Below, piece by piece: positions 57,701 to 60,700 of a stretch of 64,000 nt of DNA. Source of the DNA: Raja brachyura. Lineage: Eukaryota. The stretch is taken from NCBI GenBank assembly GCA_963514005.1, contig OY740813.1:9672001-9736000 (forward strand), in the 5' to 3' direction. Within the stretch, counting starts at the first letter, position 1. Every line of letters begins with the position of its first letter. The position numbers are program-made.

Positions 57701-60700
57701 AAATGAGGAACATTTCATTAAATTAAAAACTAACATTTGTGTGATTTTCCCAGTCTACATTATTAAGTTCGCCTTACTTGGGTGAATTTATTAGGGTATA
57801 ATGAAGAAAAGCACTGATCAACATTACTTTTTTCAGTACTCACCGTATACAGTCTCTGTATCATATGGCTCCTTCCGGTATTCTGGCATCAAGGTCTAAA
57901 TATGCAAAGCAGATGTTTATTTTTTTCTCCCCCATTCTAAAATACAAATTGTAAATACCATGAATGTTATTTCAGAGATGTCAAGCAAACCCAGAGGGCA
58001 TAATTTTGAGGTGAAGGGGGGGGGGGGGGGGGAGAGAGAAAGGAACAAGCTTTTCCACAGAGGGTGATGAGTATGTGGAATGAACTGCCAGAAGAAATAA
58101 TAGAAGCAGGTACAATTATAATTTTTCAAAGGCATTTAGACAGATGCATGGATAGAAAAGGTTTAGAGGGAATGTGTAGGAAGGAACTGAAGATGCTTGT
58201 TTAAACCACAGATAAGACACAAAAAGCAGGAGTAACTCAGCAGGTCAGACAGCATCTCTGGAGAAAAGGAATAGGTGATGTTTTAGGTTGAGGAGTGTCT
58301 CGATCTGAAACGTCACCTATTCATTTTCTCCAGAGATGCTGTCTGACCCGCTGAGTTACTCCAGCTTATTGTGTCCATCTAAAGGTTTAGAGGGATATGG
58401 ACCAAATACGGCAAATGGGACTAGTTCAGGTAGGCAAATGGGTCAGCATGGGCGAGTTGGGCCAAAACTTACATTCCATGCTGAGTTTGTTTATGATTAC
58501 CATGCTACCATGTTAACTGTTAATTTCCTAACTAAATGACCTTTATGTGTTTCTTCTCCCTCTTATGAGGGAATTTTAAAAAAAAAAGCAATCCCCACAA
58601 TTTTTTAGTCCTCTTTCTCAGTAGCTTTCAATCTCCAAATAAGCTATCCTTTCAGCAGTACCATGTCACACGACTGCCAAACTTTGTGATTCATAACCTC
58701 CAATCTGTTCAGAGTTTCGGAAATTTGTTTCAATTACCCCGATTGAGTATTTATCAATTTTAGTCTGATAGTCTTCATTATTTTAGAGCTGCATTTTATC
58801 ACTGCAATTCCTTTGCATCCTGGAAAAAAATATGAATTGACGATTCCTACCAAATAATTTGCTAATCTAGACTAACCGCTACTCATCTCGCAACATCTTA
58901 ATTTTAAAATCCTTTCATCTCTTCCATCCTTCCCATTTATGCAATAGACTCCTGCTCTGTCTGCCTGGGACTTTAAGCTCTTGCACATACCCTATTTTCT
59001 TCACACTGGCAATGATTGCTATTTTGTCCATTCTCTGGCTCCCAATTTATAAAAATCCTTCTCTAAACTTTTGTTTCTACCCTCATTTAAGATACTCTTT
59101 AAAATCTCCTTCATAAGGTGTTTGGTCATCTGCCCTTGCCTCATTTTATAGTTGGTATCAAACTTTGATAATGTGGTAAAAAGCCTTTAGTACATTAGCA
59201 ATACTGTACAAATGAGTACCTGTAGTAACACATTAAAACAAAATTGATCTTCCATGACAAATGATTTCATTAGAGTTGTAAAGATTAACTACATAAAAAC
59301 AGTAATAGAACAGTTAAAGATATAGCTTCATCATCCATATTGTATTGAATAACAATTATTAAACATGACGGAATGAGGAATTGCAAGCCGTTCTGACAGC
59401 ATATTGACAAACCTGAGAATCACTATCACTTAAGCTACCAGAATCGCAGTCGTCACCCTCGGTCATTCCTTCTTCATCATCTTCATCAAAGCAACCAACT
59501 GCATCAACCGTAATCATGTCCTCTGGATCATCTTGTCCAGCTTGATCTTTATCCAGGGAGCTGCGCTGCAGCTTAACCTGGCAACAAATGCAATTTAACA
59601 ATGTACAATTACACAGGGTGATGAACATAAAGAAGTGGTATACCTGCCTAAATCTCAAATGTGTATATTTCCTGAATACCTTACTCAAGTAGCAACCCGC
59701 CCATCCTTCTTGTCCTTCCAACTCTCAATTATGTGGCTTAGATAGTACCAGTTTTTAAATGAATTGTCCATATTTGGACTTTGCATTAGCAATTGACACT
59801 ACCTACGTATGGAAAAGTCAAGAGATGAGGTTCATCAACACAAATGCAAAATTTTGAAATGTTTGGATGCTTCCGCCTTGGGACAGGAGGAAGAAGAAGA
59901 GGGAGCAAAGGAGAAACCCTTGGATGTGTCCAGAGATACCAGAATGAGTTACGAAAAATCACTGGTGGAGACACTCTCCTATAAGATAATTGTTTTGATA
60001 TTTTTAATGTACCAATGATATAGGGACATGAATATAAATGTAACTGTTGCAAAAGATTTTAAAGACAATCAATTAAATTTGTGATCAAAATCTTGCAACA
60101 TGAATCAAGGCGAGCATTTATCTATCATTGCATAAATCATTAAATTATAATCAATAAATTATTTATTAATACCAATACAAAATGGATTGGTGCATTCTTT
60201 CCAAATAGTTAGACCTACTCAGCCAAAACATGCCTGTTGATCTTGGGGTCAGAAGGAAATGTACATAATTTCTATCTTTTAAGCAGGAGAAAAGAGCATT
60301 GTTTAAAAAGATTATAACAAGAGTCATTGAGCAACACAAAATATAAACAGGTCCATCACCCCTGCAATCAAACTGCAGACTGTTAATTACTCATATTTCA
60401 GTAATGCTAAATTAATCTCATTTTTAAAAATGTTCTAAGCATTCTCTTCAACACCCCCAGATACTACACATCTCCACACTAGAGGCAAATTACAGTGTGG
60501 GGTCTAGGAGGAAACCAAAGAACTTGGAAGAAATCTATGCAGTCACAGTGAAAATGTGCAAATTCCATACAAACAGCACTTGATTATGATTGAAATCTGC
60601 CTTTTGGGCTCCGAGTCAGTTGAATGCAATACTTTTCAGCTTTAACATCCATTTGACCATGCAAATAAGAATGTAGGTCTATTAAAAGAATGCGTTGCAC

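What the first reader, a model, noticed from the sequence alone, without database searches (positions are those of the whole stretch)
58157..58395. Size series of asymmetric hairpin mini-elements with 10-15 bp TSDs: a MITE-like product of a retroelement
Seen: the architecture of the 2.1-kb element (two opposed PLE termini; one arm with the 3' tail, the other stopping near ...ttttgtgt(c)ta) recurs at ~200 bp scale. Examples: 58172-58380 (perfect TSD aaaggtttagaggga), 21893-22127 (14 bp, 1 mismatch), 23410-23630 (acagac(t/c)agg), 20987-21196 (tctgcagttt), plus a smaller hairpin at ~41690-41795. Apex sequences differ between copies. Inference: either hairpins form de novo at each insertion through a stereotyped second-strand or template-switch step at a fixed boundary, or they are a non-autonomous family mobilised in trans. 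Either would inform the poorly resolved PLE integration mechanism.
Basis: partly seen in the sequence, partly recalled or inferred. Interest (0 to 1): 0.7.

Follow-up and report, generated by a model that had tools for sequence, protein, structure and literature searches.

The report
Hairpin-shaped truncated Penelope retroelement insertions
The small hairpin repeats are real, but they are the usual by-product of how Penelope-like retroelements insert (two short copies laid head-to-head inside one target duplication), not a new kind of mobile element.

Summary
58172-58380 is a 209-bp inverted pair of Penelope-like element (PLE) 3' termini. It is flanked by a perfect 15-bp duplication, and two uninterrupted paralogous repeat copies carry that 15-mer only once. 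Four other mini-hairpins and a 2.1-kb one share the plan. One arm ends at a short boundary (...TTTTGTGTCTAC, here B1). The other carries 38 more bases, the 'tail', up to a long boundary (here B2).

Solo copies of 81-123 bp use the same two ends and have the same 12-17-bp duplications. The boundary is therefore not specific to hairpins. Arm inner ends differ in every hairpin, and the hairpins belong to three subfamilies.

Inverted 5'-truncated copies, a 30-40-bp tail at one end and TSDs are published PLE hallmarks. A purified PLE protein nicks and extends both target strands and starts reverse transcription at two internal sites that bracket the tail.

Best reading: each hairpin formed de novo by priming on both strands. 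In the 2.1-kb copy neither arm is contained in the other, which excludes simple snap-back.

A replicating hairpin subfamily (58172 and 23410) is not excluded.

Interest is low to moderate.

The parts
58157..58171 (.). Left copy of the 15-bp target-site duplication (TSD) of the 209-bp hairpin.
   Evidence: It is a perfect repeat of 58381-58395. Two uninterrupted paralogous copies of the host repeat (34755-34860 on +, 27600-27705 on -) hold this 15-mer once.
58172..58292 (-). Tailed arm of the 209-bp hairpin. It is a PLE 3' terminus on the minus strand with the 38-nt tail at its left end.
   Evidence: It aligns to the reference terminus up to the tail end. The tail motif lies at 58199-58180.
58291..58380 (+). 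Short-ended arm of the 209-bp hairpin. It stops at ...ttattgtgtccatct, directly against the TSD.
   Evidence: It overlaps the other arm by about 2 nt, inside the palindrome of the hammerhead-like motif.
58381..58395 (.). Right copy of the 15-bp TSD.
21893..22127 (.). 235-bp hairpin. The tailed arm is 21893-22065 (-) and the short arm is 22066-22127 (+). The arms abut with no spacer.
   Evidence: TSD of 14 nt with 1 mismatch, 21879-21892 / 22128-22141. The arm inner ends are at -87 and +1 relative to the predicted ribozyme cut site.
23410..23631 (.). 222-bp hairpin. The short arm is 23410-23492 (-), a 14-nt filler follows at 23493-23506, and the tailed arm is 23507-~23631 (+).
   Evidence: The flanking repeat (10 nt, 1 mismatch, 23399-23408 / 23630-23639) is weak on its own. 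The right boundary is ambiguous by 2-3 nt.
20987..21196 (.). 210-bp hairpin of an older subfamily. The tailed arm is 20987-21110 (-) and the short arm is 21108-21196 (+).
   Evidence: The flanking repeat tctgcagttt is 10 of 10 (20977-20986 / 21197-21206), which is borderline against the null.
24573..26667 (.). 2.1-kb hairpin. The short-ended arm is 24573-25850 (-) and contains a GIY-YIG open reading frame at 24893-25831. The tailed arm is 25851-26667 (+), with its tail at 26630-26667.
   Evidence: The arms are 98-99% alike. The TSD is 15 nt with 1 mismatch, 24558-24572 / 26668-26682. The left arm reaches 207 nt deeper and the right arm alone has the tail. The apex holds three 34-nt tandem units at 25750-25850.
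41691..41800 (.). Hairpin of about 110 bp. Both arms seem to end at the short boundary. Its status is uncertain.
   Evidence: Arms 41692-41733 / 41756-41797 are 79% complementary. No flanking repeat was found.
26683..36736 (.). CORRECTION: the end coordinate should read 26736. This is a micro-unit of about 54 bp: 11-12 nt of the short-boundary end in reverse complement, followed by the last 4 nt before that boundary plus a tail.
   Evidence: Read (tail motif at 26711-26730). No clear TSD. It lies directly beside the right TSD copy of the 2.1-kb hairpin.
3034..3137 (-). Solo 104-bp copy ending at the short boundary, nested in the 3' untranslated region of another copy.
   Evidence: TSD of 16 nt with 1 mismatch, 3018-3033 / 3138-3153.
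28630..28752 (+). Solo 123-bp copy ending at the short boundary.
   Evidence: TSD of 14 nt with 1 mismatch, 28616-28629 / 28753-28766.
23093..23177 (-). Solo 85-bp copy with the tail.
   Evidence: TSD of 15 nt with 1 mismatch, 23078-23092 / 23178-23192.
30402..30482 (-). Solo 81-bp copy with the tail.
   Evidence: TSD of 17 nt with 1 mismatch, 30385-30401 / 30483-30499.
30893..30990 (+). Solo 98-bp copy with the tail.
   Evidence: TSD 14 of 14, 30879-30892 / 30991-31004.
26538..26565 (+). Hammerhead-like core CTGAAGA-A-GGGTCTCGACCC-GAAAC-GTC in the terminal module. The palindrome GGGTCTCGACCC is where three mini-hairpins turn.
   Evidence: 20 copies lie within 7 edits. 4 match a strict pattern, against 0.04 per shuffled window. 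The core fits the published PLE minimal hammerhead descriptors. Rfam did not call it.

Best explanation
The mini-hairpins are individual insertion events of a Penelope-like retroelement (PLE), each formed anew. They are not copies of a hairpin-shaped master.

Proposed mechanism:
1. The element's GIY-YIG endonuclease makes staggered nicks 10-17 bp apart on the two target strands.
2. Each freed 3'-OH primes reverse transcription of PLE RNA (target-primed reverse transcription, TPRT). On one strand synthesis starts at the inner start site, B1 (...UUUUGUGUCUAC). On the other it starts 38 nt further 3', at B2, the tail end.
3. Both cDNAs stop early, mostly within or near the GC-rich hammerhead-like stem about 65-95 nt upstream of B1.
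4. Their 3' ends are joined head-to-head with 0-4 nt of overlap or a short filler.
5. Gap repair then gives one target-site duplication (TSD) around the pair.

When only one strand primes productively, the result is a solo copy of 80-125 bp ending at B1 or B2.

Shown here:
- The units are insertions with TSDs.
- Both end types occur in solo copies and in hairpins.
- Every hairpin has its own arm ends.
- In the 2.1-kb hairpin neither arm is contained in the other.

Inferred (from published in vitro work on another PLE, not tested for this family):
- Priming on both strands.
- The identity of B1 and B2 with the two reverse-transcription start sites.
- The way the two cDNAs are joined.
For: 1. 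True insertion. The 15-mer flanking 58172-58380 occurs once in two uninterrupted paralogous repeat copies.

2. TSDs are far above chance. 9 of 30 ends examined (7 units) scored >=12 within 300 nt, against 1.3% of 1500 random sites.

3. Solo copies and hairpins share the same machinery.
- TSD-flanked solo copies end at B1 (3034-3137, 28630-28752, 41977-42736) or at B2 (23093-23177, 30402-30482, 30893-30990).
- Solo TSDs are 12-17 bp and hairpin TSDs are 10-15 bp.
- The tail is 38 nt in both 24573-26667 and 58172-58380.

4. Arm inner ends differ per hairpin. Relative to the predicted ribozyme cut site they are -24/-16, -20/-23, +1/-87, -27/-33 and +28/-4. In the 2.1-kb copy they lie about 1.2 kb and about 1.0 kb upstream.

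5. Hairpins occur in three tail subfamilies, each of which also has solo members.

6. The young 2.1-kb hairpin has arms 98-99% alike, against 91-94% to the nearest other copy. Partner arms rank 1, 2, 4, 3, 2, 2, 1, 1, 5, 3, 4 and 9 of 30 among family copies.

7. In the 2.1-kb hairpin the short-ended arm reaches 207 nt deeper, while only the other arm has the 38-nt tail, and the TSD abuts B1 directly. Neither arm can be a copy of the other, so two separate initiations are needed.

8. Signs of template jumping appear at the junctions.
- A 34-nt unit is repeated three times at the apex of the 2.1-kb copy.
- One arm has a 286-nt internal deletion with a 5-nt overlap.
- 23410 carries a 14-nt filler.

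9. Literature.
- PMC11167929 (main text read): a purified anole PLE protein cleaves and extends both strands. It initiates at two adjacent internal RNA sites, and the genomic tail is the stretch between them.
- PMC8557442, PMC3846280 and PMC8969392 (passages): an inverted 5'-truncated copy, a tail at one end only, TSDs and palindromes at inverted junctions are described as typical of PLEs.
Against: - Only one window was available, giving 6-7 hairpins.
- In tail-matched orientation, 58172-58380 and 23410-23631 align over their whole length at 86% column identity, with only a 19-nt apex indel. By my reading, their four arms share two T variants not seen in solo copies of this window. They are as close to each other (88-91%) as partner arms are. 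This is what a replicating hairpin subfamily would also give.
- Four or five of the six hairpins have the short-ended arm nested within the tailed arm, so they are equally compatible with snap-back self-priming. Only the 2.1-kb copy is decisive. The apparent non-nesting at 58172 lies within the ambiguity caused by the 12-nt palindrome.
- The one-short-end, one-tailed-end pattern (5 of 6, or 6 of 7 with the micro-unit) cannot be distinguished from independent choice at about 0.5 per arm. My arithmetic gives P about 0.11 and 0.06.
- The published in vitro work reports no strand difference in start-site use.
- 41691-41800 has no TSD and two short ends. The flanking repeats at 23410 and 20987 are weak when taken alone.
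- Three tail-to-tail pairs within 400 nt show that chance neighbours do occur at this copy density.
- No full-length element, no reverse transcriptase domain and no direct pseudo-LTR was seen in the window.
Confidence: 0.7

Rival explanations
1. A hairpin-shaped, non-autonomous element of about 210-230 bp is transcribed as a unit and mobilised in trans by the PLE protein. At least 58172-58380 and 23410-23631 would then be its copies.
For: - The two units align end to end in tail-matched orientation (86% column identity), with one 19-nt apex indel.
- Their four arms are 88-91% alike, which is as close as partner arms.
- By my reading, all four arms share two T variants absent from the window's solo copies.
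- Non-autonomous PLE derivatives are known: retrozymes and the Chlamydomonas MRC1 element (passages).
Against: - After removing the indel, 5 of 16 apex positions differ, against about 12% divergence in the arms (my count).
- The arm inner ends differ by 3-8 nt.
- Short-to-short and tailed-to-tailed arm identities (0.88, 0.90) are no higher than cross comparisons (0.89, 0.91).
- The other hairpins (21893, 20987, 41691 and the 2.1-kb copy) have quite different arm ends and belong to other subfamilies.
- Solo copies of similar size have the same ends and TSDs.
- A palindrome at the turning point would make independent events look alike.
Confidence: 0.12
2. Snap-back self-priming. A single target-primed cDNA folds back on itself, for example at the GGGTCTCGACCC palindrome. 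It copies itself to give the second arm, and the endonuclease resolves the end about 38 nt short of the origin.
For: - Three mini-hairpins (58172, 23410, 20987) turn inside or next to the palindrome.
- In 21893, 23410 and 20987 the short-ended arm lies within the span of the tailed arm.
- Self-priming at palindromic inverted junctions was proposed for rotifer PLEs (PMC3846280, passage).
Against: - In the 2.1-kb hairpin the deeper arm lacks the tail and the shallower arm has it. The shallower arm therefore cannot be a copy of the deeper one.
- The model needs an extra, unexplained stop exactly at B1. B1 is already used as a genuine 3' end by TSD-flanked solo copies.
- Extension of both strands has been observed directly in vitro for another PLE.
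Confidence: 0.13
3. The hairpins are two independent solo insertions that landed head-to-head by chance, or by homing next to an existing terminus.
For: - Copy density is high and clustered. By my reading units lie in 20987-28754.
- Three tail-to-tail pairs lie within 400 nt.
- 41691-41800 has no TSD, and the repeat at 23410 is weak.
- The 2.1-kb unit sits directly beside the micro-unit.
Against: - A single TSD encloses the whole pair at 58172, 21893 and 24573, with no internal duplication.
- The empty-site paralogues show that 58172-58380 entered as one piece.
- The arms abut within 0-4 nt in four units.
- The arms of the 2.1-kb unit are 98-99% alike.
Confidence: 0.04
4. The palindromes are fold-back artefacts of sequencing or assembly.
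For: Long, nearly perfect palindromes such as the 2.1-kb unit are a known type of artefact (my general knowledge, no call).
Against: - The mini-hairpin arms have diverged to 73-90% identity.
- The units have unequal ends and are flanked by TSDs.
- The 2.1-kb arms differ by a 286-nt deletion and by the tail.
Confidence: 0.01

Closest known systems
Canonical endonuclease-containing Penelope-like elements (Penelope/Poseidon, Neptune and relatives): the 'inverted 5'-truncated copy plus one-sided 30-40-bp tail' insertion structure
   Same: - Heavy 5' truncation.
- A head-to-head inverted copy.
- A 38-nt extension on one arm only.
- TSDs.
- A palindrome or filler at the inverted junction.
- A hammerhead-like motif in the terminal repeat.
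- A GIY-YIG open reading frame.
(compared with passages.)
   Different: - The published descriptions I read concern kb-scale units or pseudo-LTRs of about 200 bp attached to an open reading frame. Here most units are only 54-235 bp in all and hold no coding sequence.
- TSDs here are 10-17 bp, against 8-10 bp in the rotifer examples.
- No direct pseudo-LTR or full-length copy was seen in this window.
Poseidon element of Anolis carolinensis (PAc) in vitro (Frangieh et al. 2024, PMC11167929)
   Same: - Two alternative 3' ends separated by a tail-length stretch.
- Both ends sit directly against target DNA without homology.
- A hammerhead motif lies some tens of nt upstream.
- The published nicking and extension of both strands is what a head-to-head pair needs.
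(compared.)
   Different: - That work is biochemical, on another host's element. Nothing was tested for this family.
- It reports no strand bias in start-site use, whereas here 5 of 6 hairpins pair one short end with one tailed end.
- It reports a preference for AT-rich (ATT) targets. By eye, I saw no such preference in the 13 TSDs.
- Its supplementary figures, which show genomic ends, were not opened.
LINE-1 twin priming (5' inversions)
   Same: It works alike in principle. Both nicked strands prime on RNA, the two cDNAs are joined by microhomology, and one TSD surrounds the result. (This comparison is recalled from general knowledge, not from a call.)
   Different: - In LINE-1 the second primer anneals at variable internal sites, so the inverted part is a different segment of the RNA.
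- Here both arms cover the same 3' terminus and start at two fixed sites, so the product is a true inverted duplication.
MITEs (miniature inverted-repeat DNA transposons)
   Same: Small size, terminal inverted repeats, flanking duplications and a strong predicted hairpin.
   Different: - The arms are 3' ends of a retroelement.
- The ends are unequal by 38 nt.
- TSD length varies from 10 to 17 bp.
- The inner arm ends differ between copies.
- Solo half-units carry the same TSDs.

Metazoan non-LTR retrozymes
   Same: Short non-coding sequences related to PLE terminal repeats and carrying a type-I hammerhead (passages).
   Different: - Retrozymes are tandem arrays expressed as circular RNA.
- Tandem Repeats Finder found no array of this module in the window. 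Only two arrays were reported: the 34-nt apex triplet and an unrelated 264-bp pair.

Membership tests
Penelope-like element (EN+, C-terminal GIY-YIG) | An open reading frame with reverse transcriptase followed by a GIY-YIG endonuclease. | tested here: inconclusive
   - The 312-aa frame at 24896-25831 (-) matches Pfam GIY-YIG at E = 3e-4. Its score of 21.4 bits is just under the 22.6-bit cut-off.
- 345 relatives had E <= 0.001. The best 120 are 547-1097 aa, and nearly all carry PF26215, usually together with PF00078 (reverse transcriptase) and PF28514, and some with PF01541.
- The reverse transcriptase core itself is not present in this truncated copy. I did not look for one elsewhere in the window.
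Penelope-like element (EN+, C-terminal GIY-YIG) | Frequent 5' truncation, with an adjacent inverted 5'-truncated copy (head-to-head). | tested here: met
   There are 6 head-to-head units plus one micro-unit. Arm lengths run from about 12 nt to about 1.28 kb.
Penelope-like element (EN+, C-terminal GIY-YIG) | [quoted passage not shown] | tested here: met
   - The tail is 38 nt (26630-26667, and the equivalent stretch in 58172-58380).
- It is present on one arm in 5 of 6 hairpins.
- The tail motif was found 12 times, against 0.2 per shuffled window.
Penelope-like element (EN+, C-terminal GIY-YIG) | Target-site duplication. | tested here: met
   TSDs are 10-17 bp. 7 units scored >=12 within 300 nt, against a null of 1.3% per site. 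A paralogous empty site confirms the one at 58172.
Penelope-like element (EN+, C-terminal GIY-YIG) | A minimal hammerhead ribozyme in the terminal repeat: CUGANGA, an extra nt between positions 9 and 10.1, a G10.1-C11.1 pair, GAAA, and palindromic 15.2-16.2. | tested here: inconclusive
   - The sequence CTGAAGA-A-GGGTCTCGACCC-GAAAC-GTC meets those descriptors. A strict pattern hit 4 times, against 0.04 per shuffle, and 20 decayed copies were found.
- Rfam gave no hammerhead hit at gathering score over the whole window, nor at E <= 10 in 22500-28200.
- By eye, helix I has only about 2 pairs.
- No cleavage test was done.
Penelope-like element (EN+, C-terminal GIY-YIG) | Pseudo-LTRs formed by partial direct tandems. 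| tested here: inconclusive
   - No full-length copy is in the window.
- The one direct pair of terminal modules, 23956-24088 followed by 24105-24271, could be a partial tandem or two separate insertions.
MITE (class II non-autonomous element) | Terminal inverted repeats that match a DNA transposon, TSDs of fixed length, and copies with a uniform internal sequence. | tested here: not met
   - The arms are PLE 3' termini.
- TSDs are 10-17 bp.
- The ends are unequal by 38 nt.
- The inner junctions differ per copy.

Non-LTR retrozyme | Tandem arrays of units of about 170-400 nt, each with a hammerhead. | tested here: not met
   Tandem Repeats Finder reported only two arrays in the window. Neither is an array of the module.

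The most novel reading that the evidence does not exclude
Each integration event uses the two internal reverse-transcription start sites once each, one per target strand. The hairpins would then be in vivo fossils of a dimeric PLE ribonucleoprotein carrying out symmetric target-primed synthesis from both nicks. The two cDNAs would preferentially be joined at the self-complementary stem II of the element's hammerhead motif. The mini-hairpins would give a base-resolution natural record of start-site pairing, cDNA joining and TSD length. Current in vitro assays, which see no strand bias, do not provide such a record.
Probability: 0.3. Interest if true: 0.55.

Novelty: new member of a known kind. 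Interest (0 to 1): 0.3.

Why it matters
The finding is mostly reassurance. What looks like a MITE-like family is the normal debris of Penelope-like retrotransposition in what is probably a cartilaginous-fish genome (the one close named relative of the ORF is from a bamboo shark). Annotators should mask and classify it as PLE, not as a DNA transposon or a new class.

It has a modest positive value. Because the units are tiny and TSD-flanked, every junction can be read.
- They show in a genome what was shown in a test tube for another host's element: two fixed initiation sites 38 nt apart.
- Their products are best explained by priming on both strands.
- The 2.1-kb copy, where neither arm is contained in the other, argues against simple snap-back.

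A genome-wide tally of end-type pairs and junction positions could test whether the two start sites are used in a coordinated way.

Tried and rejected
- **Rfam.** No hammerhead or other family was found at gathering score in the whole window. At E <= 10 in 22500-28200 there were only three chance-level lncRNA or snoRNA matches. The hammerhead-like core was therefore assessed by pattern only.
- **Coding overlap of the terminal module.** In the anole element the start sites lie 111-118 nt into the ORF. I ran blastx of three terminal modules against the 120 relatives. No hit was better than E = 0.16, so this is not shown.
- **Arm-to-arm identity as a test between 'de novo' and 'family'.** It rejects random pairing of arms, with partner ranks 1-9 of 30. 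It cannot separate the two models for 58172 and 23410, whose four arms are all 88-91% alike.
- **One-tail-per-hairpin rule.** 5 of 6 (6 of 7 with the micro-unit) fit it. This is not significant against independent choice (my arithmetic), so I do not claim it.
- **TSD for the micro-unit 26683-26736 and for 41691-41800.** None was found (by eye).
- **A larger hairpin formed by 43027-43320 (-) and 43472-44449 (+).** No enclosing repeat was found. I treat them as separate copies.
- **Genome-wide census.** This was not possible. The only open DNA collection (genome contigs) holds bacteria and archaea. The phage, plasmid and E. coli collections are irrelevant.
- **Slips in my calls.** One search failed on a term format and was resent. 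One search failed because two of three references contained stop codons.
- **Supplements.** I did not open the supplementary files of the papers cited. These include the genomic-end figures of PMC11167929 and the supplementary material of PMC8557442. They may already tabulate small inverted insertions.
- **Literature on mini-hairpins.** My four searches listed no paper that describes hairpin PLE units of 50-250 bp as such.

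
Full report
**What is at the coordinates**

The window has no N. It is AT-rich eukaryotic DNA, packed with interspersed repeats.
- At 58157-58395 there is a perfect 15-nt direct repeat (58157-58171 and 58381-58395). It encloses a 209-bp unit.
- The unit's arms, 58216-58292 and 58299-58375, are 90% complementary over 77 nt and lie 6 nt apart.
- As single-stranded DNA the unit folds at -74.9 kcal/mol. 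200 shuffles gave -21.7 +/- 2.9, and 0 of 200 did as well.
- The unit sits inside an older interspersed repeat. Two other copies of that repeat in the window (34755-34860 on +, 27600-27705 on -) run through the site uninterrupted. They carry the 15-mer once.
- The unit is therefore an insertion that duplicated 15 bp of target.

**The family**

- The arms belong to a repeat with about 30 terminal modules in the window.
  - A 16-nt core motif with up to 4 substitutions hit 33 times. By reading the context, I dropped 4 hits as unrelated (5349, 17079, 29680, 38431). That leaves 29.
  - Five further arms were too diverged for that search.
- The longest copy is a 2.1-kb inverted structure at 24573-26667.
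  - Its arms are 98-99% alike.
  - It carries a 312-aa frame at 24896-25831 (-) with a GIY-YIG match. The match has E = 3e-4 and 21.4 bits, against a cut-off of 22.6 bits.
  - That frame has 345 relatives at E <= 0.001. The 120 listed are proteins of 547-1097 aa. Most carry PF26215, usually with reverse transcriptase PF00078 and PF28514, and some with PF01541.
  - One named relative is from the shark Chiloscyllium punctatum, 66% identical over 48% of the query.
  - This identifies a Penelope-like element (PLE) with a C-terminal endonuclease.
- About 65 nt upstream of the short boundary the module holds CTGAAGA-A-GGGTCTCGACCC-GAAAC-GTC.
  - This matches the published descriptors of PLE minimal hammerheads. 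[quoted passage not shown]
  - A strict pattern hit 4 times, against 0.04 per shuffled window. 20 copies lie within 7 edits.
  - Rfam did not call it, so I treat it as a motif-level match only.

**Two kinds of 3' end**

- Oriented copies end in one of two ways. Some end at ...TTTTGTGTCTAC, within about 3 nt (the short boundary, B1). Others run on through a tail containing CCAGCATCTGCAGTTCCTTC to a second boundary (B2).
- The tail motif occurs 12 times, against 0.2 per shuffled window. Every occurrence is attached to a module.
- In the 2.1-kb element the left arm abuts its TSD directly at B1. The right arm carries 38 more bases, 26630-26667.
- The same 38-nt difference separates the two arms of 58172-58380.

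**Target-site duplications, with a control**

I examined 30 ends, 18 short and 12 tailed.
- Not examined: both arms of the 20987 unit, the short arm of the 23410 unit, and the tailed copies near 29786 and 39497.
- For each end I looked for the best direct repeat between the 3' flank and the upstream DNA.
- 9 ends, belonging to 7 units, scored >=12 within 300 nt.
- At random sites the same procedure gives >=12 in 1.3% of 1500 sites and >=15 in 0.7%.

Hairpins:

| Unit | Flanking repeat |
|---|---|
| 58172-58380 | 15 of 15 |
| 21893-22127 | 14 nt, 1 mismatch |
| 24573-26667 | 15 nt, 1 mismatch, at 2110 nt (null >=13 within 2600 nt: 4.8% of 250) |
| 20987-21196 | 10 of 10 (score 10; null 4.7%) |
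| 23410-~23631 | 10 nt, 1 mismatch (score 8; not above chance alone) |
| 41691-41800 | none found |

Solo copies:

| Unit | Size | End type | Flanking repeat |
|---|---|---|---|
| 3034-3137 | 104 bp | short | 16 nt, 1 mismatch; nested in another copy's 3' region |
| 28630-28752 | 123 bp | short | 14 nt, 1 mismatch |
| 41977-42736 | 760 bp | short | 15 nt, 1 mismatch, AT-rich |
| 61914-62015 | 102 bp | short | 12 nt, 1 mismatch, weak |
| 23093-23177 | 85 bp | tailed | 15 nt, 1 mismatch |
| 30402-30482 | 81 bp | tailed | 17 nt, 1 mismatch |
| 30893-30990 | 98 bp | tailed | 14 of 14 |

Both boundaries are therefore ordinary 3' ends of single insertions. Hairpins and solo copies share one TSD length range.

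**Anatomy of the hairpins**

I aligned each arm to the tailed arm of the 2.1-kb element. Inner ends below are relative to the predicted ribozyme cut site.

| Unit | Arm inner ends | Junction between arms |
|---|---|---|
| 58172 | -24 (short-ended arm), -16 (tailed arm) | about 2 nt overlap |
| 23410 | -20, -23 | 14-nt filler |
| 21893 | +1, -87 | 0 nt |
| 20987 | -27, -33 | about 3 nt overlap |
| 41691 | +28, -4 | 4-nt spacer |
| 2.1-kb unit | about 1.2 kb and about 1.0 kb upstream | three 34-nt units at the apex |

- One arm of the 2.1-kb unit also has a 286-nt internal deletion with a 5-nt overlap.
- A unit of about 54 bp at 26683-26736 extends the series downward. It has 11-12 nt of the short end in reverse complement, followed by the tail.
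- Three mini-hairpins turn inside or beside the 12-nt palindrome GGGTCTCGACCC of the hammerhead-like motif. This makes their exact arm ends ambiguous by several nt.
- Of 11 inverted pairs of >=24 nt lying within 400 nt in the whole window, 9 involve this module. They make up 5 head-to-head units and 3 tail-to-tail pairs. Only head-to-head units are enclosed by a TSD.

**De novo products or a replicating family**

- Partner arms rank 1, 2, 4, 3, 2, 2, 1, 1, 5, 3, 4 and 9 of 30 among family copies.
- The flanking repeats are far above chance.

For de novo formation:
- Arm ends are unique to each hairpin.
- The hairpins fall into three tail subfamilies that also have solo members.
- The arms of the young 2.1-kb unit are 98-99% alike, against 91-94% to the nearest other copy.

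Against a clean verdict:
- In tail-matched orientation, 58172-58380 and 23410-23631 align end to end at 86% column identity, with a single 19-nt apex indel.
- Their four arms are all 88-91% alike.
- With the indel removed, 5 of 16 apex positions differ, which is more than in the arms.
- Identities between like arms are no higher than between unlike arms.
- A hot spot at the palindrome is therefore the simpler reading. Two copies cannot settle it.

**Mechanism**

- The published PLE hallmarks match point for point. They are heavy 5' truncation, an adjacent inverted 5'-truncated copy, a 30-40-bp tail at one end only, TSDs, and palindromes at inverted junctions (PMC8557442, PMC3846280, PMC8969392; passages).
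- PMC11167929 (main text read) shows several things for a purified anole PLE protein.
  - It cleaves and extends both target strands.
  - It initiates at two adjacent internal RNA sites that are not homologous to the target.
  - The genomic tail is the stretch between those two sites.
- I therefore read the short and tailed boundaries as those two start sites. I read the hairpins as events in which both nicks primed synthesis.
- The window adds one discriminating fact. In the 2.1-kb unit the short-ended arm reaches 207 nt deeper, while only the other arm has the tail. Neither arm can be a fold-back copy of the other. The remaining hairpins are compatible with either model.
- Five of six hairpins pair one short end with one tailed end. 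At this sample size that is not distinguishable from independent choice.

**Comparison and novelty**

- This is a PLE family showing the class's known insertion architecture at an unusually small scale.
- It is not a MITE. It has retroelement termini, unequal ends, variable TSD length and variable junctions.
- It is not a retrozyme array.
- My four searches listed no paper that describes 50-250-bp hairpin units as such. Supplements were not opened.
- The units are a straightforward extreme of what is published.

**What stayed unchecked**

- No genome-wide census was possible.
- I did not look for a reverse transcriptase domain elsewhere in the window.
- No cleavage test or integration test exists for this family.
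- Nothing in the window was taken for human.

Noticed in passing
window 26538-26565 and about 20 other copies (list): The terminal module carries a hammerhead-like core (CUGAAGA, one extra A, a 4-5-bp GC stem, GAAAC, GUC). It fits the published PLE minimal hammerhead descriptors, but Rfam missed it. Eight of 18 mapped 5' ends (arms and solo copies) fall between -16 and -33 of the predicted cut site, that is, within or at the 5' edge of this motif.
   Followed up: partly
window 22066 and about 30893: Two 5' ends lie at or within 2-3 nt of the predicted ribozyme cleavage site. They are the short arm of the 21893 hairpin and the solo copy at 30893-30990. This would be expected if self-cleaved RNA sometimes served as template. 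With two cases it could be chance.
   Followed up: no
window 25750-25850: Three tandem 34-nt units sit exactly at the apex of the 2.1-kb hairpin. They lie inside the coding frame, where the motif ...IHYKPTDSHSYL... is repeated. It looks like repeated template slippage before the switch to the other arm.
   Followed up: partly
window 26057-26061 (equivalent of 25147-25432 in the left arm): The tailed arm of the 2.1-kb hairpin lacks 286 nt that are present in the other arm. There is a 5-nt overlap at the deletion junction.
   Followed up: no
window 26668-26736: The 2.1-kb hairpin inserted immediately beside a PLE micro-unit of about 54 bp. Its right TSD copy abuts that unit's short-boundary end. 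This may reflect the published tendency of PLE endonuclease to recognise PLE termini.
   Followed up: no
window 20987-28754: By my reading, about 11 insertion units of the family lie in 7.8 kb, against about 19 in the other 56 kb. One solo copy (3034-3137) is nested in another copy's 3' region. The cause could be clustering, homing or regional tolerance.
   Followed up: no
window 39491-39695, 41761-42016, 22810-23157: Three tail-to-tail pairs of terminal modules lie 119-300 nt apart, with no enclosing duplication. They are a useful reminder that chance neighbours occur at this copy density.
   Followed up: partly
window 23956-24088 and 24105-24271: Two terminal modules lie in direct orientation 17 nt apart, the first tailed and the second short-ended. 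This could be a pseudo-LTR-like partial tandem or two separate insertions.
   Followed up: no
window 58030-58500, 34723-34887, 27617-27776: The host of the 58172 hairpin is another interspersed repeat. One copy encodes ...FTQRVAGVWNKLPEEVVEA... on the minus strand (27606-27863). From memory, this resembles the conserved C-terminus or 3' tail of a vertebrate LINE. It was not classified here.
   Followed up: no
window 23903-23955 and 41826-41870: A further shared repeat (...caagagtgttttattgtcat.tgtcc.agatagaacaatg...) lies directly next to PLE modules at both places. Its family is unknown.
   Followed up: no
window 51386-51912: A 264-bp unit is repeated twice in tandem at 90% identity. It is unrelated to the PLE module.
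   Followed up: no
window 58017-58033: A run of about 17 G lies just upstream of the host repeat.
   Followed up: no
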